From: a virus
Virus record (IMG/VR): IMGVR_UViG_3300035670_011224
Span: 88,430-152,429 of that record
Length of the DNA stretch: 64,000 nucleotides
Strand: one strand, 5' to 3'
Part shown: one piece after another, positions 36,884-61,572 of the stretch
Layout: each line of letters starts with the position of its first letter
Position numbering within the stretch: the stretch's first letter is position 1
Notes under the pieces: generated by a model
What the model was told of the DNA's origin: nothing
Database searches by the model: none
What the model saw: only the letters and a program-made list of their open reading frames with translations
Made by a program: the position numbers and the translations under genes

Positions 36884-38150
36884 TTATATCTCCTAAAATT
36901 TTACCATTATCAATAATTTTAACAGGTCTATTTCCTGGAGCTATTAGATGTTTATTATGATCAATACCTAATAGATTATATAGTGTGGCGCCCCAGTCCT
37001 CTACACTCACCGGATCGTCCTGTGGTTCGCTTGCTGTGTCGTTGCTGGAGCCGTATACCAGCCCTTTTTTAATTCCTCCCCCTGCCATGACTATAGAAAA
37101 AACACGCGGCCAATGATCTCGTCCAGCGGTTGGATTTATTTTTGGAGTACGACCAAATTCTGTGGCAACACAAACTAGTGTTGAATCTAATAGACCTTTT
37201 TCATCTAAATCGTTTATTAATGCAGAAAAAGCTTTGTCAAAAGATGGCAATTGACTGCCTATATTTAGCGCTATATTATCGTGATGATCCCATCCGCCAT
37301 AAGTTACATTCACGAATCTGACCCCGGCTTCTACCAATCTTCTGCTTAGTAGTAGCCTCATTCCCGCCGCAGTTTTACCATAAATTTCTTTGGTCTTATC
37401 GTCTTCTTTGTTAATATCGAATGCTTGTATAGCCTGAGACGAATTCATAATATTATAAGCATTTTGATAAAAAGAATTCATAGAATCCAAAGAGTCGGAC
37501 TTTTGCCTAACATTGAACTCTTTGTTGACTATTTCTAGCATCGCTTTTCTTTTATCAAATCTATTTACAGATATTCCATCTGGTAATGTTAAATCTCTAA
37601 CTTTAAAGTTTGGATCTTCTGGATTTCCACCAAGACTAAATGATGAATAACTATGACTAAGATATCCGGCACCAGCAAATTCATTAGGTACATTTGGTAC
37701 TGTTATATACGGAGGTAAATTATTCCTGACTCCTAATTGTTGACTGACTACTGATCCTAAACTTGGATACTGAATGGCTGGACTAGGACGATATCCAGTA
37801 AACATATTATTAGTTCCACGCTCATGTGCTGTTTCACTATGAGTCATGGATCTGATAATGCTAATTTTGTTCGCTATTTTTGCAGTTTCTGTTAAGTATT
37901 GACTAAAAAATATTCCAGGAATACTAGTTGATATACTATTTAAAGGACCCCTATAATCAACTGGACTATTCGGTTTTGGATCAAATGTTTCTTGATGAGC
38001 ATATCCACCAGGTAGATAAATATAAATCACTGACTGTGCTTTTGCTTCCTTCACAGAAGGTTCTTCTGCTCTTAATTTTAGGTAGTCTCCAAGATTTAGT
38101 CCTAGATATCCTAAAACACCCGTATTTACAAAGCCTCTTCTGTTAAACAT
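36876..38150 (-). CDS. DUF1501 family protein, Tat-exported (copy 1)
   Basis: MFNRRGFV; LPGGYAHQETFDPKP; RRLVEAGVRFV; GGWDHH; EFGRTP; GRDHWP. Confidence 0.92.
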   Translation of the reverse strand: MFNRRGFVNTGVLGYLGLNLGDYLKLRAEEPSVKEAKAQSVIYIYLPGGYAHQETFDPKPNSPVDYRGPLNSISTSIPGIFFSQYLTETAKIANKISIIRSMTHSETAHERGTNNMFTGYRPSPAIQYPSLGSVVSQQLGVRNNLPPYITVPNVPNEFAGAGYLSHSYSSFSLGGNPEDPNFKVRDLTLPDGISVNRFDKRKAMLEIVNKEFNVRQKSDSLDSMNSFYQNAYNIMNSSQAIQAFDINKEDDKTKEIYGKTAAGMRLLLSRRLVEAGVRFVNVTYGGWDHHDNIALNIGSQLPSFDKAFSALINDLDEKGLLDSTLVCVATEFGRTPKINPTAGRDHWPRVFSIVMAGGGIKKGLVYGSSNDTASEPQDDPVSVEDWGATLYNLLGIDHNKHLIAPGNRPVKIIDNGKILGDIIG

Positions 38151-42632: not shown

Positions 42633-43496
42633 TCAAACATAATCCTGATCAGGATCATAGTCTTCATCTTCATCTTCATCTTCATCTTCGTACTGATTCC
42701 AGTAATCATCATCATACTCATCGTATAACTGCTCTTCATCGTCATCATAAGAGTCTTCGCTAAACTCAGCCTTGTAAAGAGGCTTTAGGAGTTCACCTTG
42801 ATATTCACCAACAACTTCATATCGACAAGTACGAAGTTTTTCATGATTACAATCACTAGGAACACTGACTACATCCTTGGGATTGATCTTAACGATCATA
42901 ATATGATCGCCACTATCAGCACTACCATAATTAGCCACATAGTTCAAAGCACCAGCATGAAGTCCCTGAGAGCAACCAACACTACGATTATCGTCAACCT
43001 TAGCCCTATTCATTTGGCAAACTTTGCCAACATGGTTGTCAAATGTACCAGCATACTTATCCATATAATCGCTACGAACAGCCTTATATGCTAGAAAATG
43101 ACCATCCTCAGTTATTGGCAGATGTTCATGCTCCAAGAAATCATACAGTTCCTTTTGGCTCTGCATACTAGGATTTTCCATAAGATTATTCAAGAAGTTT
43201 ACAAGAGGCTGAAACGGTAATCCCTTACTCATAAACTCTAGAATACGCTTACTAATGCTACCATGAACTTCTTCGCCATCAAAAAGCACCTTGCCGTTCT
43301 TGACTTCAACCAGACCATCACTAAATGATGATACTGCCTTTTCAATATCCACCAGATCTAGCAACTCATCATTTGTTGCTGTTGGTAGAGCCTCAAGAAT
43401 CAACTTGTAATTAATATGATCTGGAATAACTTGATAAGCCTTATTATTCAAGATCAGTGTCAAATTACCATCAACCCACATAAACGGAACGCTCAT
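42633..43496 (-). CDS. rIIB: rIIB-like protein
   Basis: FLNNLMENPS, ELYDFL, PITEDGHFLAYKAV, CSQGLHAG, INPKDVVSVP, KLRTCRYEV. Confidence 0.9.
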   Translation of the reverse strand: MSVPFMWVDGNLTLILNNKAYQVIPDHINYKLILEALPTATNDELLDLVDIEKAVSSFSDGLVEVKNGKVLFDGEEVHGSISKRILEFMSKGLPFQPLVNFLNNLMENPSMQSQKELYDFLEHEHLPITEDGHFLAYKAVRSDYMDKYAGTFDNHVGKVCQMNRAKVDDNRSVGCSQGLHAGALNYVANYGSADSGDHIMIVKINPKDVVSVPSDCNHEKLRTCRYEVVGEYQGELLKPLYKAEFSEDSYDDDEEQLYDEYDDDYWNQYEDEDEDEDEDYDPDQDYV

Positions 43497-43524
43497 TTTA
43501 ATTTCTCCTCTTTTCCTGTGAAAT

Positions 43525-46179
43525 TTATTTGATCAAAACACCTAGACTATTTCGTAACTGTTCAATACCGTTGTCATCAATAGTTATAAACCATGCTGGC
43601 GGACTATAGTAACGATTATGATGTACTCTAAGTGGATTAGAGGAACCAATTCCGTTTAATCCCGCATCAGCACCGTTTGATTCCAACGTACTGCTCACAA
43701 TATACTTGAGCATCGGCACCTTGTCAACCTCCGCTTTAAACTTTTTTCTAAGATCACTACTTTTCGTTATCGACTCACAAAAATCTTTGGATTCTTGAGA
43801 AATTGATACTATCTTAGATGTATAATCTTCGCTATACATAGTATTGATCTCGCTCTTTAAGATATTAAACTCTTGAGTTTGTTTACGAATCTTCTCAGGA
43901 TCAATACCATTCATATTATGCTTTGCTAATATTTTTGCCATAGCAGCAAAGTATTCTGACTTCTTACAAAACTTCATATCAAAACTATTATGGATAACAT
44001 GAGCAAAAAAGTAATGAATCATCCATTGATCGACCAGATTACAAAGTTCCGATCCGTCAATATACTTATGATAATCAATACCAAAAATGTTTAGAATAGC
44101 AACCGCTACTTGTCTATCTGTACGAATTCTGTAATAACCATAAGTATCATTCTTCTCGTCTGTATTATACTGTTCAGTACAGTAGTCTACAATATTCTTA
44201 TATGAACCAACTTCTCCGCAGAGTTTACTCATCATACTCTTTAATTTAGGCTTGATCCAAGCATTGAAATCAATAAGATTCAAATCTTTGATCTTACTAA
44301 CAGCACTCTGCTTGATAGCAAGAATATTCTTGTCTTTCAATAGATTGTGAAGAGTATGATTTTTATCTTTAATGATTTTGTTAAGATAAGCGATAGATGG
44401 AAATCCTTCCACCGAAGCATATCTAATAATAGGAATATAAATTGTTTCGTCTTGATCCTCAATAGTTTCGTAGGTATCTTCGTCTACTTCTCTAAGAAGA
44501 TCAGAATCATTTATTCCATTACCAGATAGCACTAGTTTATCGTTAGCGTCTGGACAATCACGAATAATAAAAACCTCACCAGCACTAATCTTACCAAAAG
44601 AAACACTGCTCTTGCGTGGTCCCTTGCTAAGTAGACTACGATAATCAGAAACATTAACTATATTGGTTTCTCCACCAATATCACTAATGATATCATCAAA
44701 ACCCTCTGTAGAATCTTCTGGATGATCACTATCCACCATAAGATAAGCAAAGCAATCATTCTGATTACAATATTTTGTCACAATCTTTTTGGCGGTTTCA
44801 GCACCCTTAATATCGCAGCGGAAAAAGATCATTTTACCACTCTTTTTAGTTCCGCTCCAATAGTATTGAGGAACTCCCTTGAGTGTTTCGTTATGAATTT
44901 TATCTGTTAGATAAACCATACGACGAGAGCGATATCCGGCTGTTCTAAAATTAAAAACATATAACTGCTTATTTTTCTTGAACTTGTATTCAAGATCTTT
45001 GCCACTAGTTAATTCGTGGGTCTTTCCAGACTGATCAGTCCATGATGCACCAGCGGTCCACCCACCGGCAAGATCGCTCAGATTATAATAAGTCTGATAA
45101 GCATCTACCAGATTAGTACACTGAGTAATCTTTTGAGTCATATCTTCTTTGAGTTGAAGATAAATATCTTGAGTTCTTTCACGCAAAACTTTAAGAACAT
45201 TCTTTGTATACTGTAAGCCTTCACGACTCACATCCATTTCCAATTCACCAATATCAAAATTGATTTCAAGATACAAGCCGGACCCTAGAACCTCCTTGAC
45301 TAGATTCTTCCAGTTATCCACATCCACCTTTTTAAAGGTACGATTCCATCTCTGGATAGCGTCATTGGAAGCATCTTTTTCTGCTTCTCCAATAATCTTT
45401 GAACTATCAACAGGATAAGCAATATTACCCATGATAGCAATAATACCACTATCAGCATTGTTGTATGCTGAAGGATATTGATCATTATTATTTGCTAGTC
45501 TACCAATCCTCCAGCCCTTACCATCAATAACAAAATTGGTATAAGAGTACGAATGATCGGACAGATTCTCCCCAAAACCACCCTCAATAATGGGCTTCAT
45601 CTTGAAGTAATGGAAAATTCTTTTTGCTTTGGTAGTAAACTCGCCAAAATCACACTGTTTAACAGCAAAACTAATTTCAAGACCATTGGCTTCCTTAGTT
45701 GGACTAATATCGAAAAGATTAAGACTAGGAACTCCGTTCTCGTCCATAGCCGCAATATAAGAATACTTAGTTCCGTTGTAATAAGATACTGTGCTAAAAC
45801 TCTTGGTATAAGCAAACGGACTCTTACTGCCTAATCCAAGACAACCAACAAAATCATTACTATCGTTCTTGTTGCTTGCACCATAAGTGGTATACAGTTC
45901 CTCCATATCTTGCTGACTAAGACCCGTACCATAATCACGCACAGTAAAAGATGGAACCGCTTGTGTTGGCAGAATAACTTTAAAAGGATTCTTGTTGCCA
46001 GCAGCAACGTGAGCATCATAAGCATTTGTGCTTAGTTCACGAATAACCGCCATAACCTTATCGGAATATAGAGAGTCCGACAGGATTTTAAACATTTTGC
46101 TCGTTTGAGCAATAGTAAATTGATTACTGCTTTCCAAACCCCTACTATGAATTTCAACCGTTCGATCTGCAAGTTTCAT
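43525..46179 (-). CDS. rIIA: rIIA-like protein (GHKL/HSP90-type ATPase)
   Basis: ILSDSLYSDKVMAVIRELSTNAYDAH, VRDYGTGLS, YGASNK, GCLGLGSKSPFAY, SREGLQY. Confidence 0.92.
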   Translation of the reverse strand: MKLADRTVEIHSRGLESSNQFTIAQTSKMFKILSDSLYSDKVMAVIRELSTNAYDAHVAAGNKNPFKVILPTQAVPSFTVRDYGTGLSQQDMEELYTTYGASNKNDSNDFVGCLGLGSKSPFAYTKSFSTVSYYNGTKYSYIAAMDENGVPSLNLFDISPTKEANGLEISFAVKQCDFGEFTTKAKRIFHYFKMKPIIEGGFGENLSDHSYSYTNFVIDGKGWRIGRLANNNDQYPSAYNNADSGIIAIMGNIAYPVDSSKIIGEAEKDASNDAIQRWNRTFKKVDVDNWKNLVKEVLGSGLYLEINFDIGELEMDVSREGLQYTKNVLKVLRERTQDIYLQLKEDMTQKITQCTNLVDAYQTYYNLSDLAGGWTAGASWTDQSGKTHELTSGKDLEYKFKKNKQLYVFNFRTAGYRSRRMVYLTDKIHNETLKGVPQYYWSGTKKSGKMIFFRCDIKGAETAKKIVTKYCNQNDCFAYLMVDSDHPEDSTEGFDDIISDIGGETNIVNVSDYRSLLSKGPRKSSVSFGKISAGEVFIIRDCPDANDKLVLSGNGINDSDLLREVDEDTYETIEDQDETIYIPIIRYASVEGFPSIAYLNKIIKDKNHTLHNLLKDKNILAIKQSAVSKIKDLNLIDFNAWIKPKLKSMMSKLCGEVGSYKNIVDYCTEQYNTDEKNDTYGYYRIRTDRQVAVAILNIFGIDYHKYIDGSELCNLVDQWMIHYFFAHVIHNSFDMKFCKKSEYFAAMAKILAKHNMNGIDPEKIRKQTQEFNILKSEINTMYSEDYTSKIVSISQESKDFCESITKSSDLRKKFKAEVDKVPMLKYIVSSTLESNGADAGLNGIGSSNPLRVHHNRYYSPPAWFITIDDNGIEQLRNSLGVLIK

Positions 46180-48481: not shown

Positions 48482-48514
48482 AGTTTATATAGTTTTATTT
48501 TATTACAAGTTAGA

Positions 48515-49075: not shown

Positions 49076-49954
49076 CTATTTATCGATAAAAATATTATCG
49101 AATTCTTCCTTCAAAAATGCTCTTATTTTTGCTGCGTTTGGGCTACTTTTTAGATTTTCATATAGTTTTTCTTGACTAGAATTTCTAAAATTTTCTATCT
49201 CCATTCCTTCACCGAAAGTTTTTTCCGCTTCTATCAAAAGAAATTTAATAGTATTTTTAAATTGAGGATATGTTTTCCAATACTCGTTATCATGTTCCTT
49301 AACGGCCATAGCAAAACAAATAGCATAAATACTAAAATCCAAACACCCGCTAACAGCATCAACTCTTTCATTTAGAATACCATTATTATAATCTTCAACC
49401 GCACTTTTACTTCCTAATATATAAGAATTCCATTCGTCAATAATATATGATGGCATATCATTCCAATCCACAATATTTTTAACAAAGTAGAGATTATATC
49501 TGTATGATCTTAAGTCTGGTGGAATATATTTAGTAACTAAATGCATACTAATATTAGATTCTTCCAATACTATACAGCGAGAATTTAAAACATAAAAAAC
49601 ATTTAATTTTTTACTCAATGCTTTACTATATAAATTTCTAAGATGAGATGTTATACCATGAGAAGTTTCATGTACATTGATTCTTCTACTATCTTGATCA
49701 CCGTATGGTTTTTCAAAACTATGTGTTAATACATCTCCGTATATTGTATTTTCTTCAATTTTACGATACTTATCAACCTCCGTAAATACTAATCCGCTTT
49801 TTTCTTTTGGTTTTGGTTTATTTTCTGGAATAGTTTTAGGTTTATCATCCGGCATAATAACCACAATAGTATTGTCTGGTTGATTATTTTCATAGTAGTA
49901 ATAACCCAGTGCCGAACTTATAACTATTAGGGATAATATTTGTTTAGTTGTCAT
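49076..49954 (-). CDS. Membrane-anchored HExxH (zincin-like) protein
   Basis: N-terminal anchor ILSLIVISSALG; VHETSHG; downstream DEWNSY. Start likely ATG 49954. Confidence 0.55.
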   Translation of the reverse strand: MTTKQILSLIVISSALGYYYYENNQPDNTIVVIMPDDKPKTIPENKPKPKEKSGLVFTEVDKYRKIEENTIYGDVLTHSFEKPYGDQDSRRINVHETSHGITSHLRNLYSKALSKKLNVFYVLNSRCIVLEESNISMHLVTKYIPPDLRSYRYNLYFVKNIVDWNDMPSYIIDEWNSYILGSKSAVEDYNNGILNERVDAVSGCLDFSIYAICFAMAVKEHDNEYWKTYPQFKNTIKFLLIEAEKTFGEGMEIENFRNSSQEKLYENLKSSPNAAKIRAFLKEEFDNIFIDK

Positions 49955-50399
49955 GATTAATAGATTGTAGCCAATCCATGTAGTTATCATATATGTATCC
50001 TGCCTTTCTTGATTTCTCTATGTTCCTAGTCCCTGAACAATCTATAACCACAGATGTTGGTATAACATTGTACTTAAATTCTTTTGCTAATTTTTTATTA
50101 TCGTCTATATCTAGGAGACAAATAACAAACTTGTCTTTAATTTTTAGTTTATCAAAATCATTTTCTAAAATTGTACAATACTTGCACCATATACTTTTTA
50201 ATATAACTAATAATAATCTTTTTTCTTTTTTTGCAATCTCTAGCGCCTCCTTATAGTCTATATAAACTATTGATTCCTTTGGAGTATTAACTACTGGTAC
50301 TACTATAGATACTGGAATATCTTTCCTAGTAGTATGTTTTGATGTATAAAAAAACACAAAACCTAAAATTAGAATTGCTACTAAATATTTATTAATCAT
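49944..50399 (-). CDS. Exported thioredoxin-fold protein
   Basis: Signal anchor; WCKYC; IPT (cis-Pro); GY. Confidence 0.85.
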   Translation of the reverse strand: MINKYLVAILILGFVFFYTSKHTTRKDIPVSIVVPVVNTPKESIVYIDYKEALEIAKKEKRLLLVILKSIWCKYCTILENDFDKLKIKDKFVICLLDIDDNKKLAKEFKYNVIPTSVVIDCSGTRNIEKSRKAGYIYDNYMDWLQSINHDN

Positions 50400-50400
50400 T

Positions 50401-50580
50401 TTATTCTTTCGGCATTATAATAGCTAGTATTAAATAAATCCATAATAATAAAGTTCCTGTTGCAAAAGTTCCTAAAAAGAAAAGCAATCGTACTATTGAT
50501 GTATCCCAACCTAAATATTCCGCAATTCCAGCACAAACACCAAAAATAAATTTATTGGATGATTTTTTAAGTTTTGACAT
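50401..50580 (-). CDS. pspC: PspC-domain membrane protein (59 aa)
   Basis: Below the ORF-track cutoff; hand-translated MSKLKKSSNKFIFGVCAGIAEYLGWDTSIVRLLF...IYLILAIIMPKE, the classic PspC GVCxGxAxY...R...Y...P pattern. Confidence 0.9.
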   Translation of the reverse strand: MSKLKKSSNKFIFGVCAGIAEYLGWDTSIVRLLFFLGTFATGTLLLWIYLILAIIMPKE

Positions 50581-51896
50581 TATGCTATAACTCCTTGATG
50601 AACATTACCGTAAACGTCTGTTAATCTAAAATCTCTACCACTATATCTATAGGTGAGTTTGGTATGATCAATTCCCATCAGATGTAGTATAGTAGCGTGT
50701 AAATCATGAATAGTCATTTGATTTGTTTCTAAAGAGGTATGACCAAAATCATCAGTACTACCATATCTTATACCCCCCTTTACTCCACCTCCACACAGCC
50801 ATAAACTATATCCTAAATGATTATGATCTCTACCAGTTGCTTTGTCTTGAAATCCGGGAGTTCGTCCAAATTCTCCGCCCCATATAATTAATGTATCTTC
50901 TAACATACCTCGATCTTTTAGATCACTAATTAGTGCAGATATTGGTTTGTCAACCTCTGAGCATTTGGTTATCATATTCTTTTCTATATCTGTATGAAAA
51001 TCCCAAGTTCCAATTCCTATCTCAATAAATCTCACACCCGCTTCCGCAAACTTTCTTGCTAGTAAACATTGTTTACCAAAAGCATCTGTTGGTTTTTGAC
51101 CTATACCATAATTATCTAATACTATTTTATTTTCTTTTTGTATATCTAATATTTTAGGAACCTCTGTTTGCATTTTAAATGCTAACTCATAACTATTTAT
51201 TAGTGCTTCTAATTCTGTATTCACAATATCATTGTTTAGTTGTAGCCTACCAATTTTTTGTAAAGTATCTAAATTTTTTCTTTGAACATCAGAAGAAAAC
51301 TTACCAGATAAATTAGGAATAGCATTTTTTATATTACCAGCATTTATGGAAGTTCCTTGATATGTTGCTGGTAGAAATGCACTACTATAATCACTGGCTG
51401 GTATTGTAGCATTAATAGTAATAAAGCCAGGTAGTTCTTGGTTCTCTGTTCCAAGACCATATAACATCCAAGACCCAATACTTGGTCTAACAAACTGAAA
51501 ACTTCCAGTGTGCAACAATGTTCTAGCCTGTTCATGATTTCCGGTATCTGCTTTCATACCATTAATTAAACATAAATCGTCCGCGTGTTTTTGAAGTTGT
51601 GGAAATAAATCACTAATCATAAGACCACTTTTGCCACACGGACTAAATTTGCTAATTGGCTTATATAACTTTCTATTCTTTTCTTTGGGGTCTTGTTCAC
51701 CATGTTTCTTTTCTAATTCTGGTTTATGATCAAAAGTATCCACATGCGAAACACCACCGTTCATATAAAGAAAGATTATTCTTTTAGCTTTTGGAGTATG
51801 ATGAACAACATTCTCTCCCAATAACATACTATTAAAGGCTAATCCTCCAATCCCACAGGATGCTGATTCTAGTATTTTTCTTCTAGAAAGTAACAT
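50580..51896 (-). CDS. DUF1501 family protein, Tat-exported (copy 2)
   Basis: MLLSRRKIL; PKAKRIIFLYMNGGVSHVDTFDHKP; GEFGRTP; GRDHN; RDFRLTDVYG. Confidence 0.92.
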   Translation of the reverse strand: MLLSRRKILESASCGIGGLAFNSMLLGENVVHHTPKAKRIIFLYMNGGVSHVDTFDHKPELEKKHGEQDPKEKNRKLYKPISKFSPCGKSGLMISDLFPQLQKHADDLCLINGMKADTGNHEQARTLLHTGSFQFVRPSIGSWMLYGLGTENQELPGFITINATIPASDYSSAFLPATYQGTSINAGNIKNAIPNLSGKFSSDVQRKNLDTLQKIGRLQLNNDIVNTELEALINSYELAFKMQTEVPKILDIQKENKIVLDNYGIGQKPTDAFGKQCLLARKFAEAGVRFIEIGIGTWDFHTDIEKNMITKCSEVDKPISALISDLKDRGMLEDTLIIWGGEFGRTPGFQDKATGRDHNHLGYSLWLCGGGVKGGIRYGSTDDFGHTSLETNQMTIHDLHATILHLMGIDHTKLTYRYSGRDFRLTDVYGNVHQGVIA

Positions 51897-52437
51897 ATTT
51901 AGCTCCTTTTCTAAGATTATCTTTAGCCCATAAGGGTTGAAGATTAGTATAGTGAAAACATAATTTTTGTTCTTTTTTGAGTTTTAGATTAAAAGCAGCA
52001 CAAGGTCTAATATGGTCTATATGCCATTGTCCATAATTTTCCCAACTCATACCATCTAGAAATTTTTGTTCTATATATTGCTTAAAAGACTCCAAATCAC
52101 ATCCTAATAATTTTAGTGTACTAGCAGATTTAGTTGATCCTCTAACAATATGTCCTATTCTAACCCTAATATTACTGATTAATTTATATGTAATATTTGT
52201 TTTTCTAGTTTTTCTTTCCCATTCTCTCTTATACTTTTTTCTTTGTTCTCTTGTTCTATCAGCATATTCTTTAATTTTATCTAAATTTTTAAGTCTATAT
52301 TTTTGTTTATCTAAGTTTCTACATTTTTTACACGAACTTTTAAAAGAGTTACCTCTTTTATGAAAAAATTCATGTGTTTTAGGGAAAGTTTTTTTACAAG
52401 TTCCACATTTTTTAGTTAGACTTTTCTTTGTATTCAT
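51883..52437 (-). CDS. Free-standing HNH-type (homing) endonuclease
   Basis: CxxC...CxxC; MSWENYGQWHIDHIRPC...CFHYTNLQPLWAKDNLRKG. Confidence 0.85.
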   Translation of the reverse strand: MNTKKSLTKKCGTCKKTFPKTHEFFHKRGNSFKSSCKKCRNLDKQKYRLKNLDKIKEYADRTREQRKKYKREWERKTRKTNITYKLISNIRVRIGHIVRGSTKSASTLKLLGCDLESFKQYIEQKFLDGMSWENYGQWHIDHIRPCAAFNLKLKKEQKLCFHYTNLQPLWAKDNLRKGAKYVTF

Positions 52438-54821
52438 TATGGGACGCTTCTAAATTCTAAAGTGGATACTAATATTTGAATAAAACCTACCATAGCAACG
52501 TCTTCTTTTTCAGCACTTTTAAAGTATTCTTCAATAATAGTTAACTCTTGTTGTGAGGGTGGTCTTGATAAACATTTAAGATAACCATATTCTATTTTAT
52601 CTTTAATAGGCTTATCTTTTAACGAGTCTATTTGTTTAGCAATTTTTTCACAATATCCTATAACTACATTATTATTCATCATATAAAGAGCTTGCGTAGT
52701 AACTATAGTTTCATTTCTATCAGCATTTAATAAATTATTGTCTGGTCTATCAAAAATATCTAAAAACTCTATAGCATAATCTCTTGGCAATGGTAGATAA
52801 ATACTTCTATATTTAGCATTAAATATTTCTTTATTAATTTCTCCAGTAATTTTTCTTTTAGAATTACCTGTCATTAAATTAGTATTATCTGGATGAGTTG
52901 GCGTTAGTTCTCCGACGAGAAATAGAAAACTATCTCTTATATTGTCAGCAATCAAAGGCTTAGTATTCATTCTCCAAAAATAAATATTATCGGAATCTTT
53001 TTCATAATTTTGTTGATTAAACTCTGTCGATTGTTTATATGCGTTGCTTGTCACAATATCTTTTATAATGAACTTAATATTAAAATCGCTATTAATAAAT
53101 TTATTAGCTAAATAATCTAGAAGTTCTGGATTAGATGGTTCTCCACCAAGATTTCCAAAGTTATCGAAACTTTCTACCAAACCTCTACCAAAAAGATAAT
53201 TCCACACCCTATTACAAAATACTCTATAGGTCAGAGGATTATTCTTATCTGCGATCCAGTTTGCTAGTTCTATTCTTCCACTACTTTTAGATACTGATGG
53301 ATTGGTTTCTGGAGAATCATTATGAAAAATTTGAGGAACATTTTTTATTGTTTCCTCACCCAAACTATTAACATTTCCTCTAATATGAACTTTGGTTTTT
53401 TCTGTAATGCTTTTATTATCTCGTAAACTCATAACAGGTTCTAAAGGACTGTCTGTGAGTATTTTTAGCAAAAGAATTTTGTTCTCGTCATCTGGAATTT
53501 TTGCTATTGCTTCCGACAATTCTTTCTCAACTTTTTCTGCTTCTTTGATCGCTTGTTTTTTATCGTTCTCATTTAGATTGGGATTATATACATGAATAGT
53601 TCTGAGTCTCTGAAACTTGTTATTTATGTCACTAAACAACTCTATAAGATCATATCTATTTGTATCAAAATATTTTCGTAAGTCATCATTAATTAGATAA
53701 TCATAATCTCCTTCGTATCCTATATTATTATTACCCCTATAAACACCATCTTTGGTTTGACAATTACTCAATATACCATACATAGAATAGTAGTCTTTTT
53801 GACTAAATGGATCAAACTTATGATCATGACATCTAGCACATGATAATGTTATTCCTAAAAATCCTCTGGAGATAACATCTATCTGTTCATCAATCGTTTC
53901 TGCCAAGTATTCTTTCGGACCTATGTTTAGGCTTTTAGTTCCAATAGACAAAAAACCAACAGCAATTAAATGATTATTGTATTCTTGAATAGATTTTGCT
54001 GGTATTAGATCACCAGCAATTTGTTCTTTAATAAAAATATTGTATGGTTTGTTACTATTAAAACAATCAATAATATAATCTCTATATCTCCAAGCATATG
54101 GATATAATACATTTTGGTCTTTACCCGTGGATTCTCCGTATCTAGCAATATCAAGCCAATATCTTGCCCATTTTTCTCCAAAACGCTTATCGTCCAAAAG
54201 ACGATCAACTAATTTAGTATATTTATCTGAAGAAGAATCGCTAACATATGATATTATTTCTTCAACAGTCGGAGGAACGCCTATTAAATCAAAGTATAGT
54301 CTCCTAATCAATACATAATCATTAGCGGGACTAGAATTGGTTAATTGTTTAGTTGTTATTTTTGATTGTATAAGACTATCTATTGAGGATCCATTATTTT
54401 CTATTAGAGGTTGTAGTGACCACAAATCATCTTTCATATCAAGTATTGATTGTGGTTGATCCCTAGGATCTATTGCCCCATTATTTATCCATATTTTAAA
54501 ATTATTTATAACTTGATCGGATAATTTTTCGTCAGGAGGCATGGAAATATCAGAATGATTTAAAGCCTGTAATAGCAGGCTATCATCTGCATTTTTGGGT
54601 ATTATTACCTGACCACTATCACCACCCTTCATCCATGCTTCTTTATGGTCTAGGGATAATCCACCTTTTGGTTCGTTTAGCGTGGAAGAATGACAAGAGT
54701 AACATTTTTCTGCTAATATTGGTCTGATATTAGTTTCAAAAAAGATTATATTCTCATCAGCATTTGTTGTGTAACAAATAAAAAGCTGTAGAATTAATAG
54801 TAATAGAAAAGAAAGTCTCAT
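52437..54821 (-). CDS. Planctomycete cytochrome c + DUF1549 (PSCyt2) + DUF1553 (PSD1) protein
   Basis: Signal peptide; FFETNIRPIL..KCYSCH...MPP...WINNGA; IRRLYFDLIGVPPT, GEKWARYWLDIARY, WRYRDY, CARCHDHKFDP; SGRIELANWI, NRVW..LFGRG, PSNPELLDYLA, QALYMMN. Confidence 0.95.
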   Translation of the reverse strand: MRLSFLLLLILQLFICYTTNADENIIFFETNIRPILAEKCYSCHSSTLNEPKGGLSLDHKEAWMKGGDSGQVIIPKNADDSLLLQALNHSDISMPPDEKLSDQVINNFKIWINNGAIDPRDQPQSILDMKDDLWSLQPLIENNGSSIDSLIQSKITTKQLTNSSPANDYVLIRRLYFDLIGVPPTVEEIISYVSDSSSDKYTKLVDRLLDDKRFGEKWARYWLDIARYGESTGKDQNVLYPYAWRYRDYIIDCFNSNKPYNIFIKEQIAGDLIPAKSIQEYNNHLIAVGFLSIGTKSLNIGPKEYLAETIDEQIDVISRGFLGITLSCARCHDHKFDPFSQKDYYSMYGILSNCQTKDGVYRGNNNIGYEGDYDYLINDDLRKYFDTNRYDLIELFSDINNKFQRLRTIHVYNPNLNENDKKQAIKEAEKVEKELSEAIAKIPDDENKILLLKILTDSPLEPVMSLRDNKSITEKTKVHIRGNVNSLGEETIKNVPQIFHNDSPETNPSVSKSSGRIELANWIADKNNPLTYRVFCNRVWNYLFGRGLVESFDNFGNLGGEPSNPELLDYLANKFINSDFNIKFIIKDIVTSNAYKQSTEFNQQNYEKDSDNIYFWRMNTKPLIADNIRDSFLFLVGELTPTHPDNTNLMTGNSKRKITGEINKEIFNAKYRSIYLPLPRDYAIEFLDIFDRPDNNLLNADRNETIVTTQALYMMNNNVVIGYCEKIAKQIDSLKDKPIKDKIEYGYLKCLSRPPSQQELTIIEEYFKSAEKEDVAMVGFIQILVSTLEFRSVP

Positions 54822-54846
54822 TGTTATTATTCCTATTGACCACTAT

Positions 54847-54856
54847 AATTTACACC
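54847..54856 (-). promoter_or_regulatory. GGTGTAW motif
   Basis: GGTGTAAATT about 29 nt upstream of ATG 54821. Confidence 0.45.
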
Positions 54857-54866
54857 TTTTAAGAGA

Positions 54867-56741
54867 TTATATCTTATCAATTTTACGTTGTGGTTTTAAC
54901 TCTATTTTTCTTTTAATATCATCTTTTGGTAAAGGATTATTGTTATTATTAGATCCATCATTCATCTTAGGTTGCTCTTTATATGAATCAATCCATTTGT
55001 ATCCCATTGGCGTGTCCAGTTCATTTTGTGCAACTAAAGCCCAAGGGGTATCTGGAAAATCGCTAACTATTGATTGGAGATATTTAATTGCTGTGGCATA
55101 ACTCTTTTGTAACTGACTAGATTTTGTTGTAAATTCAGCATCAAACTCTAAATTCCATAAATTATTTTTTGGATCATTTTTTTGTAAACCAGTTTTTGCT
55201 TCGGCCAACATAGCATTGTATAATTCTATTCTACATTTAGTTGCCAGAATACGACCCATAGCCAAATTATAACTAGCAAGCCATCGTTTTTCATCTAACG
55301 ATTTAGATTGTGATTCTACTTCCTTGAGTATAGTATATATTCTATCTATCTGAGGCTCTATTTTTGCAGAATATTTTTGTGCTTCATTGAGTTGTTCTAC
55401 AAATTCACCCTCTGTGTATGCTGTAAAATTAATCTTTTGATTATTATTAATTTGTATAGGTATCTTACAAGCATTCAATAAAGCAGTTTTAATTTTATGT
55501 GTTTGATTCTCTTTAGTTTGTAGTAAAATACTTCGATAATCTGGTGAATATTTTTTCATCACAGCGTTATCAAAAAATACCGAGATATATGATGATAGTG
55601 GAGATATTTCTTTTTTAGATACTTGGTTTTCGTTCCTATTAGGATGAACAGCAAAATAAATTCCACCAGTATCAACACATATTTTACTTAAAGCATACGG
55701 ACCAAAACCACTATCTAGTCCAGATTCATCAATAGGTAAACTGTGAAGATCAAGAGTCATCTTAAATAATGTTTCCGGCCCTTGATTTATCTCAACCCAC
55801 TTTTCATTCTGATCAAATTTAGGATCTGGATCAACATATTTAAATTGTATAGATGATAATCCGAATGGCGCTGGAGGCCCAACAACATAAATCCTAGTTC
55901 CTTTTCTTCTTGCTTCTACAACAGTTTTGTCCAATAAATTAAGATCGTCTCCGACCTCATCTGTAAATACTACAATCATATTTCTTTTAGTTTTATATTG
56001 TTTACATAGTTGTTCTATTGATCCAAAAATATTCTCAATACCAGTTTCATCTAGGACTATGCTATCTATTGATCTATAAAGTATGTCCTTGTCATTTGTT
56101 GGATCCGAATTAATAATTGATAATGATGAGCCGAATGAACAGATAGTGTGTTTGATTGAGTGACTAGAACTATTCATCCCTATTTCTTGTATTATCTTCT
56201 CAAATCTATCTCTAATATCTTCTCTCTGTTTCGATAAACTAATTGATGCGTCAAATAACCATATTACATTAAGATCATTATTTTTAGCATTGTTTGCTAT
56301 CTCAATAGTCAATCTGTCTAAGACTCCTCCAACACTAGTATCTTGGCTTATTGATGTACCAATATTAATGTTTTGAACAACGTCGGTTTCGGATACTACG
56401 GAAAAATCTTGTACTTTTTCTAAGGAAACATCTGAAATAATATCAAGTTGAGGCATAGTGTTCAATATTTCGTTTGATACAGATAGTGGTGCTTGTGACT
56501 CTGGTTTTAATACTGTTACTTTTTGATCAAATGTTGTCATATTAATTAGTTCAACAGGCTCTTCATAATGCTCATATTCAACTGGGCTTGACTCTAAAAC
56601 TATGAGAGATTCTCTTTTATTTTCTAGCACAACAGTAATCAGAGACAATACCATAAATAGTATAACATTAACTAAGAATGATATACTAATGGATTCTAGT
56701 AGATCGGATGATAATATCTTTTTGATATTACTCATACTCAA
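54867..56741 (-). CDS. Membrane-anchored vWA-domain protein (planctomycete type)
   Basis: N-terminal TM helix; WLFDASIS (DxSxS MIDAS), VFTDEVGDD, GFGPYAL...TGGIYF, PDTPWA. Confidence 0.85.
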   Translation of the reverse strand: MSMSNIKKILSSDLLESISISFLVNVILFMVLSLITVVLENKRESLIVLESSPVEYEHYEEPVELINMTTFDQKVTVLKPESQAPLSVSNEILNTMPQLDIISDVSLEKVQDFSVVSETDVVQNINIGTSISQDTSVGGVLDRLTIEIANNAKNNDLNVIWLFDASISLSKQREDIRDRFEKIIQEIGMNSSSHSIKHTICSFGSSLSIINSDPTNDKDILYRSIDSIVLDETGIENIFGSIEQLCKQYKTKRNMIVVFTDEVGDDLNLLDKTVVEARRKGTRIYVVGPPAPFGLSSIQFKYVDPDPKFDQNEKWVEINQGPETLFKMTLDLHSLPIDESGLDSGFGPYALSKICVDTGGIYFAVHPNRNENQVSKKEISPLSSYISVFFDNAVMKKYSPDYRSILLQTKENQTHKIKTALLNACKIPIQINNNQKINFTAYTEGEFVEQLNEAQKYSAKIEPQIDRIYTILKEVESQSKSLDEKRWLASYNLAMGRILATKCRIELYNAMLAEAKTGLQKNDPKNNLWNLEFDAEFTTKSSQLQKSYATAIKYLQSIVSDFPDTPWALVAQNELDTPMGYKWIDSYKEQPKMNDGSNNNNNPLPKDDIKRKIELKPQRKIDKI

Positions 56742-56743
56742 CC

Positions 56744-57988
56744 TCAGAACAGTTCTTTAATTACTCGTCCAGAATTAGCAATCTTCATTGGACGACCATT
56801 TTTAGATGTGAATGTTGTTTCTAATGAAATACCAACAGACTTTAGTATACTAGCCATTAAATCTTCAGAACTATATGATTCTGATACTACCTCTTTACCG
56901 TCCTGACTAGTTTCACCAACAACTACTCCACGCTTAAAACCAGCACCACCAACAACGGCACTCCAACTTCTAGCCCAATGATCTCTACCACTATTACCAT
57001 TGATATTTGGGGTACGACCAAATTCGCCCATCCATACTATGGCAGTAGTATCTAATAAACCTCTATTATTGAGATCATCAATCAAAGCACTCATTGATTT
57101 ATCTAGTTCTGGAAGTTTTTGATTTTGCAGAGTTGGAAAAATATCGCTATGATTATCCCATCCACCCAAATCAACTTCGATAAACGGGACTCCTGTTTCT
57201 ACTAATCTACGAGCCATTAAACAGCCGCGACCAAATCCAGTATTACCATATTTATCTCTAATTTCTTGAGGCTCTTTTGATACCTTAAAAGCATCCATTT
57301 GTTGGCTAGTCATAAGTTTTACTGTTTTATCGACAACTTTTTTATGCTCAATAGCAATATTCCCTCTCTTTTGAGAGATAAAATTATCTTCTATAGCCTC
57401 CAACATCTGTAATCTTTCCATTACTCTATTTTGATCAATACTACCATTTAAATCACGAATATTTCCATTACTATCAACAACAAACGGAGCATAAGTCATT
57501 CCTAAAAACCCCGGACCAATACTGCTTCCTCCAACACTAACAAATGCTGGAATTTCTAATTCTGGCACAAACTTTGAAAGTTCATGAGATACTACGCTAC
57601 CATAACTTGGATGCTCAATACTTGGGTTTGGAACAAAACCCGTATGCATATAGTATCGTCCTCTTGTGTGATCTGCTTCTCTGGTACTCATACTACGAAC
57701 AATACTCATATGGTGCATTTGCTTAGACAATAATGGTAGATGCTCACATATTTGTATACCATCAGCACTTGTGCTAATTGGCTTAAAAGGACCGCCAGTA
57801 GGAGTATCCGGTTTTAAATCCCAAAGATCAATAGTGCTGGGACCACCACCCATCCATAAAAGAATCACAGATTTCGTATTCTTTTTCATATCGGCCGCAT
57901 TAGCCAGAATAGAATCTGTAAAATTAATTGCTGGTAAAACTAATGGAGCCGCACCTACGGTATGAGATATAAAATGTCTTCTATTCAT
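56744..57988 (-). CDS. DUF1501 family protein, Tat-exported (copy 3)
   Basis: MNRRHFI; LWMGGGPSTIDLWDLKP; ARRLVETGVPFIEV; GGWDNH; GEFGRTP; GRDHW. Confidence 0.92.
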   Translation of the reverse strand: MNRRHFISHTVGAAPLVLPAINFTDSILANAADMKKNTKSVILLWMGGGPSTIDLWDLKPDTPTGGPFKPISTSADGIQICEHLPLLSKQMHHMSIVRSMSTREADHTRGRYYMHTGFVPNPSIEHPSYGSVVSHELSKFVPELEIPAFVSVGGSSIGPGFLGMTYAPFVVDSNGNIRDLNGSIDQNRVMERLQMLEAIEDNFISQKRGNIAIEHKKVVDKTVKLMTSQQMDAFKVSKEPQEIRDKYGNTGFGRGCLMARRLVETGVPFIEVDLGGWDNHSDIFPTLQNQKLPELDKSMSALIDDLNNRGLLDTTAIVWMGEFGRTPNINGNSGRDHWARSWSAVVGGAGFKRGVVVGETSQDGKEVVSESYSSEDLMASILKSVGISLETTFTSKNGRPMKIANSGRVIKELF

Positions 57989-60185: not shown

Positions 60186-61517
60186 TTAAACTGTTCTAGC
60201 CTCGCCATGTAGAATTTTAAATGTTGGAAATCTTAGACTGATACCGCCATCTTGATTCTTGGTTTCTTCAAAATATTGAACGGTAATAACTTTGCCAAGA
60301 ATTTTCTTAGGATTATGAAAAAACTCTTGTCGTTGTTCAATAGTGAAACCACTACCAACTCTCACAAGATAATCTTTATGCTTAATAGTAACACAACTTA
60401 GCATAGTTTCTTCACACTCAGCACCATTCTTTACATAACGGAATGGTCCCATTTCGGTATCAATTACTTCATACTCATCATCAAAAAACTTCTTGACTTT
60501 GAGAAGGTCTTTACTTCGCTTACCTTTATATGGTTCATCTGCTCGTAGCATAACTCCTTCCCAACCATGATCAGCGGCTTCTTTAACCCATTCTTGAAAA
60601 TGTTCATCATTGTGAATCAATTCTTGCTCAAGCAGAGTAAGGCATGGACATTCATTTTTAGTCATAATCTCTGTCAGATTTGCCAATCTAGTAGAATACG
60701 GACGATTCTTTTCTCCGATTTTGCTATAAAATTCATCATGACTAATCATATCAAAAATCTTATATGAAGGATTGGGAATAGTATGATCCTTCTTTTTTAG
60801 TTGCTTCATAACTCCTTGGAAATCTTCATTACCATCATCATCCACAAGACAAAGTTCACCATCAAATACTACATTAGTAACATCAAGAGCCTTAATACCG
60901 CCCCTAACGATAGCAAGAGTATCAAATTCCTTTCCTGTGCGGGAGTAGAAGGTAGTATCGCCATTACTATCAACAATAGCAATACATCTAGCACCATCAA
61001 TCTTTCTGCTAACATACCATCCATCCTTCCAATCTACAATATTTGGATCATACTTATCGGCCAGAGCAACACTAAACTCTGGAATATGATCTGGAATAGC
61101 CTTGTTGATAATCTTATCACCAGCACGGGTTTTCAAATCCTTATCAATGATACAGTGAATAAGCTCCTCGTATTCTTTATTAGGAGTTTCTCCTTGCGAA
61201 GTGTCTTTGTGTATAAAAGTATTAATTGCTCCGATAGCATCATGACCTGTAATCTTACGATTTTTCAGATCATCCAACAACTCAAAAATAGAGTCATACA
61301 CAAGGCCACGAAGTTGATTCTTTTTCTTTAGATTATCGCTGGTTACGTTATATTGCCACAAGGGATGGTAAGTATAAAGTAGAATTTTCTTAGCAAAATT
61401 TGCAGCCTCAGAATTATGATTACAATAGTCCTCAATAATTCCTTGCTTGTCGATGGTGCTGCTTGTGGCCCTAAGATCACGAACCATTCCCCAAACATAA
61501 TTAAAATCGTGAGTCAT
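60186..61517 (-). CDS. lig: ATP-dependent DNA ligase
   Basis: KIDGAR (motif I), SRTG, FDGE, IFD, EGVMLR, KRSKDLLKVK, VGSG, SLRFP. Start ATG 61517, downstream of the promoter and AGGAGA SD. Confidence 0.95.
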   Translation of the reverse strand: MTHDFNYVWGMVRDLRATSSTIDKQGIIEDYCNHNSEAANFAKKILLYTYHPLWQYNVTSDNLKKKNQLRGLVYDSIFELLDDLKNRKITGHDAIGAINTFIHKDTSQGETPNKEYEELIHCIIDKDLKTRAGDKIINKAIPDHIPEFSVALADKYDPNIVDWKDGWYVSRKIDGARCIAIVDSNGDTTFYSRTGKEFDTLAIVRGGIKALDVTNVVFDGELCLVDDDGNEDFQGVMKQLKKKDHTIPNPSYKIFDMISHDEFYSKIGEKNRPYSTRLANLTEIMTKNECPCLTLLEQELIHNDEHFQEWVKEAADHGWEGVMLRADEPYKGKRSKDLLKVKKFFDDEYEVIDTEMGPFRYVKNGAECEETMLSCVTIKHKDYLVRVGSGFTIEQRQEFFHNPKKILGKVITVQYFEETKNQDGGISLRFPTFKILHGEARTV

Positions 61518-61543
61518 CCAAATAGTCTCCTGTGTGTATGTCA

Positions 61544-61572
61544 AGTATACCACAACGCTCAAACACTGTCAA
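61544..61572 (-). promoter_or_regulatory. Consensus sigma-70 promoter of the ligase
   Basis: TTGACA-GTGTTTGAGCGTTGTGG(17)-TATACT. Confidence 0.85.

What the first reader, a model, noticed from the sequence alone, without database searches (positions are those of the whole stretch)
49076..57988. Phage-borne planctomycete periplasmic module: DUF1501 - vWA - cytochrome c/DUF1549/DUF1553 - DUF1501 - PspC - thioredoxin - HExxH protein
Seen: a tightly packed co-oriented block in which every protein except the inserted HNH gene has a Tat motif (RRxF/RRxI), Sec signal or TM anchor; the large protein has two CxxCH haem motifs (CYSCH, CARCH); codon usage is AT-rich like the rest of the phage. Established: DUF1501 (sulfatase/alkaline-phosphatase-like fold) and DUF1549/DUF1553 proteins are greatly expanded, adjacent gene pairs of unknown function in Planctomycetota and Verrucomicrobiota. 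Inference: the phage has long kept a complete, ameliorated copy of this system with a redox partner and an envelope-stress sensor. It may remodel the host periplasm or surface during infection, and offers a minimal gene set for working out what the system does.
Basis: partly seen in the sequence, partly recalled or inferred. Interest (0 to 1): 0.85.

Follow-up and report, generated by a model that had tools for sequence, protein, structure and literature searches.

The report
Phage island of exported planctomycete enzymes
A large uncultured lake phage, probably of planctomycete bacteria, keeps an island of host-type exported proteins. It holds the unexplained DUF1501/cytochrome gene pair and a phage-made pairing of a second DUF1501 enzyme with a membrane vWA protein, so it is a compact system for testing what these enzymes do.

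Summary
On the minus strand at 49076-57988 lie DUF1501-A, a TM-anchored vWA/MIDAS protein (p624), a PSCyt1-PSCyt2-PSD1 protein with CYSCH and CARCH, an HNH endonuclease, DUF1501-B, a PspC mini-protein, an anchored thioredoxin (WCKYC) and an HExxH protein. All but the HNH carry an N-terminal export or anchor signal. GC is about 0.31.

The block is not a chimera or a recent host fragment. Contigs from five other samples share its junctions, the best cellular identities are 54-63% aa, and dN/dS is 0.03-0.24.

It is not one system. It is a variable island between ligase and rIIA, made of separately inherited units:
- PSCyt+DUF1501-B is the known PVC pair, here in an old phage-only clade.
- DUF1501-A+p624 are adjacent in every phage locus where both sides could be read, in either order. 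They were adjacent in none of 11 planctomycete loci. They occur in complete phage genomes that lack PSD1.
- PspC, thioredoxin and HExxH are phage-lineage genes not linked to the pair in cells.

A near-identical phage carries a swapped cassette.

The DUF1501-B model resembles NPP/PafA phosphoesterases (Z about 20). Its chemistry is unknown. The likely donor or host is Planctomycetia.

This scan has already noted phage PSCyt-DUF1501 pairs in at least 19 other genomes. I found no paper describing them.

The parts
56744..57988 (-). DUF1501-A: a Tat-signal (MNRRHF) enzyme of the alkaline-phosphatase superfamily, 414 aa
   Evidence: PF07394, 353.6 bits. R3 and R4 are invariant. Phage relatives are 76-100% identical and nearly all 413-414 aa. 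The best cellular match is 63% identity, in a Mariniblastus MAG. dN/dS is 0.03-0.13.
54867..56741 (-). p624: a protein with an N-terminal TM anchor, a vWA/MIDAS domain (about residues 155-290) and a conserved C-terminal region. It is the phage-specific neighbour of DUF1501.
   Evidence: MIDAS residues D164xS166xS168, T260 and D261 are conserved. A relative passes PF00092. The family profile hits the integrin I-domain at E 6e-4. It lies next to a DUF1501 in every phage locus where both sides could be read, in either order. The family was found in 32 of 301 Planctomycetota genomes and 0 of 251 Verrucomicrobiota genomes. The K+R bias across the TM is 72 against 39, which suggests N-in, C-out.
52437..54821 (-). 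PSCyt1-PSCyt2-PSD1 protein, 794 aa, with a Sec-type signal and two CxxCH motifs
   Evidence: Pfam. C40xxC43H44, M94 and C328ARCHDHKxDP338 are invariant in 27 homologues. A gene of this kind directly precedes DUF1501-B in phage and cellular loci.
51883..52437 (-). HNH homing endonuclease (184 aa) inserted between PSCyt and DUF1501-B
   Evidence: phrog_1035, E 2e-19. It is absent at this site in L004. Copies 42-44% identical sit at another site in L005 and L086. It overlaps the PSCyt stop (TAATG), and its 3' end carries AAGGAG ahead of the DUF1501-B start. The first ~35 aa of DUF1501-B differ from L004, which suggests co-conversion.
50580..51896 (-). DUF1501-B: a Tat-signal (SRRKIL) enzyme, 438 aa, the catalytic partner of PSCyt
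   Evidence: PF07394, 443.7 bits. AF2 model with pLDDT 89.6. VIA Z 20.4-19.6 to NPP, ENPP and PafA, and about 18 to sulfatases. Phage clade with SH-aLRT 100.
50401..50580 (-). PspC-domain membrane mini-protein, 59 aa
   Evidence: PF04024, 73.5 bits. It scores below the PspC equivalog cut-off (47.7 against 104). It is conserved in relatives independently of PSCyt.
49944..50399 (-). Signal-anchored thioredoxin-fold protein, 151 aa, with a WCKYC motif
   Evidence: PF13899, 35.5 bits. It lies beside PspC in L127. An unrelated-position WCSPC thioredoxin sits 3 nt upstream of PSCyt in L103.
49076..49990 (-). p304: a protein with an N-terminal helix anchor and an HExxH...E domain, from a large unnamed, mostly viral family
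   Evidence: 880 clusters in the representative search. Invariant H107, E108, H111, E186 and Y190. The nearest three Atlas clusters are 66-98% viral. AF2 pLDDT 91.3. No clear fold match.
36876..38150 (-). DUF1501-C: a third Tat-signal DUF1501, outside the block, downstream of RuvB and a glycosyltransferase
   Evidence: PF07394, 368.9 bits. 58% identical to a Mariniblastus copy. The readable 5' part (214 aa, cut by the locus end) of the copy in L005 is 96% identical.
60186..61562 (-). ATP-dependent DNA ligase: the upstream phage boundary of the variable slot
   Evidence: phrog_114, E 1e-82. The slot is syntenic in L004, L092, L122-L127 and L130.
42633..46179 (-). rIIA and rIIB: the downstream phage boundary of the variable slot
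   Evidence: phrog_612 at E 2.5e-112 and phrog_609 at E 1.3e-72.

Best explanation
The block is a hypervariable accessory island in the ligase-rIIA slot of an uncultured 152-kb tailed phage. The gene donor, and probably the host, is a Planctomycetia (Pirellulales-like) bacterium. Every product except the HNH endonuclease is sent to the host envelope.

The island is a composite of three units.
1. The canonical PVC two-gene module: a Sec-exported PSCyt1-PSCyt2-PSD1 haem-motif protein plus Tat-exported DUF1501-B. It has been inherited for a long time within a phage-only clade.
2. A phage-made pair: Tat-exported DUF1501-A plus a membrane-anchored vWA/MIDAS protein. Both genes are of planctomycete origin but are not neighbours in cells.
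3. Phage-lineage envelope genes: a PspC mini-protein, an anchored thioredoxin and an HExxH protein.

Proposed mechanism (inferred, not shown). Each DUF1501 is a metal-dependent hydrolase of the alkaline-phosphatase superfamily, NPP/PafA-like. It is folded and metal-loaded in the cytoplasm and exported by Tat. In the periplasm a non-catalytic partner (PSCyt or the vWA anchor) docks, tethers or targets it. During infection the phage adds these enzymes to the host's periplasm to cleave phosphate- or sulfate-ester substrates and so feed replication. The thioredoxin may keep exported cysteines, such as those of CxxCH, reduced.

An HNH homing endonuclease has inserted between PSCyt and DUF1501-B without breaking translation.

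My confidence is about 0.85 in the anatomy and evolutionary history, and about 0.3 in the nutrient-release function. The single figure given is a compromise between the two.
For: Phage context and completeness.

Domains and motifs.

Seven of seven non-HNH products have N-terminal export or anchor features, against none of about 20 flanking proteins.

The same junctions occur in contigs from other samples, at 93-96% nt identity for L004, L122 and L123.

dN/dS is 0.03-0.24, like rIIA and ligase.

PSCyt+DUF1501-B is conserved across about 20 viral loci with an 11-nt overlap, and sits in the ligase...rIIA slot in L092 and L102. The phage clade has SH-aLRT 100. It nests with 88-90 support among Planctomycetaceae and Pirellulaceae copies.

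DUF1501-A+p624 are adjacent in five phage lineages in both orders, with 4-nt overlaps. They are not adjacent in 11 planctomycete loci.

Complete phage genomes carry DUF1501 but no PSD1, and the positive control for that search worked.

The cellular A-type orthologue is instead paired with a PSCyt2-PSD1 gene.

Fold: Z 20.4-19.6 to NPP, ENPP and PafA, and about 18 to sulfatases. D56, H121, S139, D299, H301 and H358 are invariant and D357 nearly so.

Host: p624 family found in 32 of 301 Planctomycetota and 0 of 251 Verrucomicrobiota genomes. A-type is 63% and C-type 58% identical to Mariniblastus copies.
Against: No substrate, metal or activity is known for any DUF1501, and no structure is solved.

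A simple esterase would not obviously need a two-CxxCH partner.

The fold cannot separate phosphatase from sulfatase or transferase. The Z difference is about 2.

Binding of p624 to DUF1501-A rests on gene adjacency alone.

The host is inferred only from gene donors. Phage GC (0.31) is far below planctomycete GC (0.45-0.72). The Mariniblastus match comes from only five named genomes.

The B-clade sister position is not strongly supported.

No expression data could be obtained.
Confidence: 0.5

Rival explanations
1. Envelope remodelling or superinfection exclusion. The exported enzymes and the vWA anchor alter phosphorylated or sulfated envelope or surface polymers of the infected cell. Together with PspC, thioredoxin and the HExxH protein they block further phage adsorption or prepare the envelope for lysis.
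For: All products are envelope-targeted. The island abuts rIIA/rIIB, which are membrane-linked lysis and exclusion genes. The alkaline-phosphatase superfamily also includes envelope transferases such as LtaS, which appear among the fold matches. The island is hypervariable and its cassettes are swapped between near-identical phages, as is typical of host-interaction loci. The phage encodes many glycosylation genes.
Against: DUF1501 lacks the TM domain of LtaS- and EptA-type transferases. DUF1501-A is very strongly conserved (76-100% identity), which is unlike arms-race genes. The cellular pairs are abundant housekeeping-like paralogues (PMC3542564).
Confidence: 0.25
2. Redox module. PSCyt is a genuine c-type cytochrome that passes electrons to or from a reaction completed by DUF1501-B, comparable to SoxAX cytochrome plus SoxB hydrolase. 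The phage uses the pair to tap an extra periplasmic electron or sulfur/phosphorus source. The thioredoxin serves haem attachment.
For: CxxCH plus the distal M94 in PSCyt1, and CARCHDHK in PSCyt2, are invariant. An exported thioredoxin lies near PSCyt in two different arrangements (window; L103). Marine relatives carry a ferredoxin directly after DUF1501-B. Kamneva et al. proposed electron transport (PMC3542564).
Against: Haem binding has never been shown. DUF1501 occurs in complete phage genomes with no PSD1. The thioredoxin-PspC pair occurs in L127, a locus with no PSCyt in view. No thioredoxin neighbours the pair in 80 cellular loci. The Sox analogy comes from my own knowledge and was not tested.
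Confidence: 0.15
3. One co-evolved eight-gene system. DUF1501 x2, vWA, PSCyt, PspC, thioredoxin and HExxH act together as a complete imported planctomycete machine.
For: The genes are tightly packed and co-oriented, with overlaps or gaps of 47 nt or less. All are envelope-targeted. The whole block is kept in L004.
Against: The units separate freely among relatives. The cellular pair has no PspC, thioredoxin or vWA neighbours. p304 belongs to a mostly viral family.
Confidence: 0.08
4. Artefact: a chimeric assembly, host contamination or a recently captured host fragment.
For: The domains are typical of PVC bacteria and are absent from PHROGs and from 50,697 GenBank phage records.
Against: The same junctions occur in contigs from five other samples. 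Best cellular identity is 54-63% aa. GC equals the phage's own. Phage genes lie on both sides. Selection is purifying.
Confidence: 0.02

Closest known systems
DUF1501 + PSCyt1/PSCyt2/PSD1 'conserved genetic module' of Planctomycetes, Verrucomicrobia and Lentisphaerae (Kamneva et al. 2012, PMC3542564; He et al. 2017, PMC5615132)
   Same: The domain architecture is the same. The gene order (PSCyt, then DUF1501) is the same. Signals match: Sec on PSCyt and twin-arginine on DUF1501. Both CxxCH motifs and the DUF1501 core residues are invariant.
   Different: The module is encoded by a phage and ameliorated to 0.31 GC. It belongs to a phage-only clade that is at most 54% identical to cellular copies. 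It is split by an HNH gene. It is joined to a second DUF1501 whose neighbour is a vWA protein rather than a PSCyt/PSD protein.
NPP/ENPP phosphodiesterases and the PafA alkaline phosphatase (alkaline-phosphatase superfamily; e.g. PDB 2gsn, 5egh, 5tj3)
   Same: The core fold is shared: Z 20.4-19.6, 237-283 residues aligned, rmsd 3.0-4.2. DUF1501 also has conserved Asp, His and Ser/Thr positions.
   Different: Identity is only 11-14%. Sulfatases score almost as well (Z about 18). The nucleophile and metals are not identified. No NPP or PafA is known to need a cytochrome or vWA partner (my own knowledge).
Phage auxiliary metabolic genes for nutrient acquisition, such as cyanophage pstS and phoA (my own knowledge)
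   Same: These are host-derived genes flanked by phage genes, conserved under purifying selection, and encoding an envelope-located nutrient-related function.
   Different: The function here is unknown. The family is absent from PHROGs and from GenBank phages. It comes as two-subunit modules.
Free-standing HNH homing endonucleases between phage genes, such as T4-type mob genes and Aeh1 mobE
   Same: It is an HNH ORF inserted precisely between two conserved genes and absent from a close relative. The flanking sequence is replaced, as by co-conversion.
   Different: The target here is the junction of an auxiliary gene pair, and the HNH ORF is translationally coupled at both ends.

Membership tests
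DUF1501 (PF07394) | Match to the Pfam model above the gathering score | tested here: met
   353.6, 443.7 and 368.9 bits against a cut-off of 27, for the genes at 56744-57988, 50580-51896 and 36876-38150.
DUF1501 (PF07394) | Twin-arginine signal at the N-terminus | tested here: met
   RR lies at residues 3-6 followed by a hydrophobic stretch. RR is invariant or nearly so in the alignments. No TatP run was available.
DUF1501 (PF07394) | Alkaline-phosphatase-superfamily fold | tested here: met
   AF2 pLDDT 89.6. Z 18-20 to NPP, PafA and sulfatases.
PVC DUF1501 + PSCyt/PSD1 two-gene module | A PSCyt1-PSCyt2-PSD1 protein encoded directly upstream of a DUF1501 gene | tested here: met
   Pfam. The same order holds in most of the 80 cellular loci and about 20 viral loci. 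Here a 184-aa HNH ORF separates the two genes.
PVC DUF1501 + PSCyt/PSD1 two-gene module | Conserved CxxCH in PSCyt1 and in PSCyt2 | tested here: met
   C40xxC43H44 and C328xxC331H332 are invariant in 27 sequences. Haem binding itself cannot be tested here.
von Willebrand factor A domain (PF00092) | Match to the Pfam model above the gathering score | tested here: inconclusive
   The window protein has no hit at E<0.01. The 60%-identical P0160 scores 28.4 against 23.8. The family profile hits the integrin I-domain at E 6e-4. The nearest Atlas clusters are planctomycete VWA proteins.
von Willebrand factor A domain (PF00092) | MIDAS motif DxSxS...T...D | tested here: met
   D164, S166, S168 and D261 are invariant and T260 nearly invariant in 31 sequences.
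PspC (envelope stress response protein; TIGR02978 equivalog) | Full-length equivalog score, and a Psp operon context | tested here: not met
   47.7 bits against a cut-off of 104. Only the 58-residue PspC domain (PF04024, 73.5 bits) is present in a 59-aa protein. No PspA or PspB neighbour was seen. It is a PspC-domain mini-protein, not a shown stress sensor.
Thioredoxin fold | Pfam match plus a CxxC motif | tested here: met
   PF13899, 35.5 bits against 27. WCKYC at the expected place.
CcmG/ResA/TlpA-type cytochrome-maturation thioredoxins | Match to the Redoxin or AhpC-TSA type models | tested here: inconclusive
   No such model was listed at E<0.01. There is only a weak DsbH hit, 25 bits against 190.
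HNH homing endonuclease | HNH-type nuclease motif, and presence/absence polymorphism at the site | tested here: met
   phrog_1035, E 2e-19. HIDH...N...N is in the sequence. The gene is absent in L004 and present elsewhere in L005 and L086. No Pfam HNH hit.
HExxH zinc metallopeptidases (gluzincin-like) | HExxH plus a downstream Glu ligand, and a peptidase fold | tested here: inconclusive
   H107, E108, H111 and E186 are invariant. No peptidase fold match was found. The best VIA Z is 6.1, and an HExxH alpha-KG oxygenase domain scores Z 5.2. No PDB sequence match.
Phage auxiliary (host-derived) gene | Flanked by phage genes, conserved in related phages, and under purifying selection | tested here: met

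The most novel reading that the evidence does not exclude
DUF1501 enzymes are catalytic subunits that work only with an exchangeable periplasmic partner. Phages of planctomycetes have exploited this by inventing a new partner combination, DUF1501 plus a membrane vWA/MIDAS anchor. They shuffle such two-gene cassettes between genomes to reprogramme the host's enlarged, digestive periplasm during infection. This would be the first virus-encoded periplasmic enzyme complexes, and a direct route to the function of one of the largest orphan families of PVC bacteria.
Probability: 0.2. Interest if true: 0.8.

Novelty: new variant of a known kind. Interest (0 to 1): 0.6.

Why it matters
DUF1501 and PSCyt/PSD1 proteins number in the tens per genome in Planctomycetes and Verrucomicrobia. 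They have had no known function since 2004-2012 (PMC3542564, PMC5615132, PMC2754498).

A phage lineage that keeps them under strong selection shows that they give a benefit within a single infection cycle. It also supplies small, AT-rich, single-copy versions for expression.

The recurrent DUF1501+vWA adjacency in phages, and DUF1501-only phage genomes, are natural experiments. They suggest that the catalytic subunit and its partner are separable.

The data also point to a widespread group of 120-240-kb phages that probably infect planctomycetes. Hardly any phages are known for that phylum.

Tried and rejected
- **GenBank phages.** Megablast and tblastn against 50,697 GenBank phage records found nothing for the block, DUF1501-B or p304.
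- **PHROGs and NCBIfam.** Neither has a family for DUF1501, PSCyt, p624 or p304.
- **PDB by sequence.** Nothing for PSCyt or p304.
- **p304 fold.** No Foldseek match in PDB or BFVD. The wide VIA search gave only Z of 6.1 or less.
- **p624 against PSCyt.** hhalign found no relation, probability 0.6%. I therefore rejected the idea that p624 is a diverged PSD-type partner.
- **Promoters and terminators.** The scan was no better than shuffles, 63 against 58.5.
- **Conserved neighbours in cells.** There are none for p624. For the B-type pair there are only common families: kinases, and sulfatases in 8 of about 66 loci.
- **T54 as nucleophile.** I considered T54 of the HxDTFD motif but rejected it because DUF1501-A has Leu at that position. 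The invariant S139 is a candidate only.
- **Literature.** No paper in the searched library links DUF1501 or PSCyt to phages. The one 'DUF1501 and phage' hit is a weak CDD note on a 61-aa protein.

Full report
**Context.** The window is bases 88430-152429 of a 152,429-bp IMG/VR virus record that CheckV rates complete. The finding lies on the minus strand. An ATP-dependent DNA ligase (60186-61562) is upstream, and rIIA (43525-46179) and rIIB (42633-43496) are downstream. No cultured phage is close: rIIA is under 40% identical to anything in GenBank phages. Megablast and tblastn found nothing there for the block.

**Observation.**
- Pfam confirms DUF1501 twice, PSCyt1+PSCyt2+PSD1, PspC and a thioredoxin fold.
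- The 624-aa protein has no Pfam hit of its own. Its 47-62%-identical relatives carry PF00092 or PF13519. DxSxS...TD is conserved in 31 members, and the profile finds integrin I-domains at E 6e-4.
- The 184-aa ORF matches an HNH-type PHROG, E 2e-19.
- The 304-aa protein belongs to a family of 880 clusters with invariant H107, E108, H111, E186 and Y190.
- CYSCH (with distal M94) and CARCHDHKxDP are invariant across 27 phage and cellular homologues.
- All seven non-HNH products have an N-terminal RR-hydrophobic signal, signal peptide or anchor. None of about 20 flanking products has a TM-like segment.
- GC is 0.29-0.35, like the rest of the phage. The cellular loci are 0.46-0.73.
- A third DUF1501 lies at 36876-38150.

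**Not an artefact.**
- Contigs from other samples carry the same junctions. L004, L122 and L123 match at 93-96% nt through ligase...DUF1501-A-p624-PSCyt.
- The closest cellular proteins are only 54% (B), 63% (A) and 58% (C) identical.
- dN/dS for every block gene is 0.03-0.24. The range for rIIA and ligase is 0.09-0.19.

**The island is modular.**
1. PSCyt+DUF1501-B.
   - It is the unit shared most widely. About 20 viral loci, on contigs up to 171 kb, have a ~790-aa PSCyt gene overlapping DUF1501-B by 11 nt. In L092 and L102 it sits in the same ligase...rIIA slot.
   - These phage copies form one clade (SH-aLRT 100). Under the LG+C20 model the clade nests, with 88-90 support, among Planctomycetaceae and Pirellulaceae sequences.
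2. DUF1501-A+p624.
   - DUF1501-A is 76-100% identical across many metagenomic relatives and nearly always 413-414 aa. p624 from the same kinds of contigs is 47-62% identical.
   - In phages p624 lies next to a DUF1501 wherever both sides can be read. The order is A then p624 in the window, L004, L122, L123 and L130. It is p624 then A, with a 4-nt overlap, in L124-L127. In L128 and L129 a different DUF1501 subfamily (D-type) precedes p624.
   - In 11 planctomycete loci the p624 homologue stands alone or as tandem paralogues, never beside a DUF1501.
   - The Mariniblastus orthologue of DUF1501-A is instead preceded by a 565-aa PSCyt2-PSD1 gene.
   - p624 shows no profile similarity to PSCyt.
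   - Five DUF1501-bearing phage records, four of them at least 94% complete and including the records of the p624+DUF1501-A loci L124 and L126, have no PSD1. The same search finds PSD1 in this genome and in three marine relatives.
3. PspC, thioredoxin and p304.
   - PspC recurs in relatives next to the p93a gene whether or not PSCyt is near. Thioredoxin and PspC are adjacent in L127. L005 has the pair and p304 but neither of the other two.
   - None of the 80 cellular loci has a PspC or thioredoxin beside the pair.
   - p304's nearest Atlas clusters are 66-98% viral.

**Cassette exchange and mobile DNA.**
- L086 is 96-100% identical to the window in the flanks. It carries a PSCyt only 52-53% and a DUF1501-B only 69-70% identical, and it has no DUF1501-A or p624. 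Identity jumps from 70-84% to 98-100% at about window position 50616, which is the DUF1501-B stop.
- L004 has an extra, fourth DUF1501 (D-type, 57% identical to a Limnoglobus copy) between PspC and thioredoxin.
- The HNH ORF starts on the PSCyt stop (TAATG). It ends 14 nt inside DUF1501-B and supplies an AAGGAG ribosome-binding site.
- The first ~35 residues of DUF1501-B (the Tat signal) differ from L004, while the rest is about 97% identical. This looks like co-conversion during homing.
- The FastTree run needs at least 7 phage/cell switches across DUF1501 subfamilies. A, B, C and D were therefore acquired separately and did not arise by duplication within the phage.

**Host.**
- The p624 family was found in 32 of 301 sampled Planctomycetota genomes and in none of 251 Verrucomicrobiota genomes.
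- The best A-type, C-type and p624 matches among five named genomes are all in one Mariniblastus MAG.
- This points to a Planctomycetia donor and probably host. It remains an inference: GC differs by 15-40 points, and no direct linkage was available.

**Function.**
- The DUF1501-B model (pLDDT 89.6) aligns best with NPP/ENPP phosphodiesterases and PafA (Z 20.4-19.6). Sulfatases follow at Z about 18.
- D56, K58, H121, P138-S139, D299, H301, E342, R345, R356 and H358 are invariant across subfamilies, and D357 nearly so. This fits a metal-dependent hydrolase.
- No structure or assay exists for DUF1501 or PSCyt.
- The literature offers only hypotheses: electron transport, or carbohydrate and sulfated-glycan metabolism (PMC3542564, PMC5615132).
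- I therefore commit, at about 0.3, to this model: periplasmic ester hydrolysis that releases nutrients, with PSCyt or the vWA protein as a docking or targeting partner.
- The rivals are envelope remodelling or exclusion (0.25) and a redox role (0.15).
- p624's bulk is predicted to face the periplasm, from a K+R bias of 72 against 39 across its single TM.

**Comparison and novelty.**
- The PSCyt+DUF1501-B pair is a member of the module described by Kamneva et al. (2012).
- New relative to the searched literature are its presence in phages and the phage-only clade.
- Specific to this locus are the DUF1501+vWA pairing, the composite island, the cassette swap and the HNH insertion.
- Earlier agents of this scan reported phage PSCyt-DUF1501 pairs in at least 19 other genomes. 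The core is therefore a repeat within the scan.

Noticed in passing
window 36876-38150 (-): A third Tat-signal DUF1501 (C-type) lies outside the block, between a GT2/GT92 glycosyltransferase and a 209-aa protein that overlaps it by 8 nt, downstream of RuvB. The readable 5' part (214 aa, cut by the locus end) of the copy in L005 is 96% identical, although L005's DUF1501-B is only 69% identical.
   Followed up: partly
window 32764-33771 (-): A phage-encoded actin-fold protein matches Pfam Volactin (PF25216) at E 1.7e-61, with weaker MreB and Salactin hits.
   Followed up: no
window 47771-48481 (-): A methyltransferase-like gene (phrog_8156) sits in a ~750-bp segment (47766-48513) that is missing from L004, L086 and L005. 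It is a strain-specific insertion.
   Followed up: partly
L004:10638-11927 (+): A close relative (93-98% nt) carries a fourth DUF1501 (D-type, 429 aa) between PspC and thioredoxin. The same subtype is the one paired with p624 in L128 and L129.
   Followed up: partly
L088:11296-11682, L092:11287-11667: Marine relatives have a 2x[4Fe-4S]-type ferredoxin directly after DUF1501-B. L088 also has a 207-aa ORF inserted between PSCyt and DUF1501-B.
   Followed up: no
L103:586-960 (+): A signal-anchored WCSPC thioredoxin-like gene lies 3 nt upstream of PSCyt in a marine phage contig. This is a second, independent thioredoxin-PSCyt adjacency.
   Followed up: partly
L005:4841-5479, L086:7487-8233: Paralogues of the HNH endonuclease (42-44% identical) sit between p101 and rIIA in relatives. 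The endonuclease family therefore occupies several sites in this phage group.
   Followed up: no
window 38917-39819 (-): A full-length RuvB-like AAA+ protein (RuvB_N at E 1e-45, plus RuvB_C) is encoded by the phage and conserved in relatives.
   Followed up: no
window 2001-4000: A GC-rich stretch (GC 0.455, GC skew +0.35) lies inside the 1049-aa ORF, in a genome of about 0.31 GC.
   Followed up: no
L029:16102-17517 (+): A Prosthecobacter locus near the cellular PSCyt-DUF1501 pair encodes tubulin-family (BtubA/B-type) genes. This is incidental to the finding.
   Followed up: no
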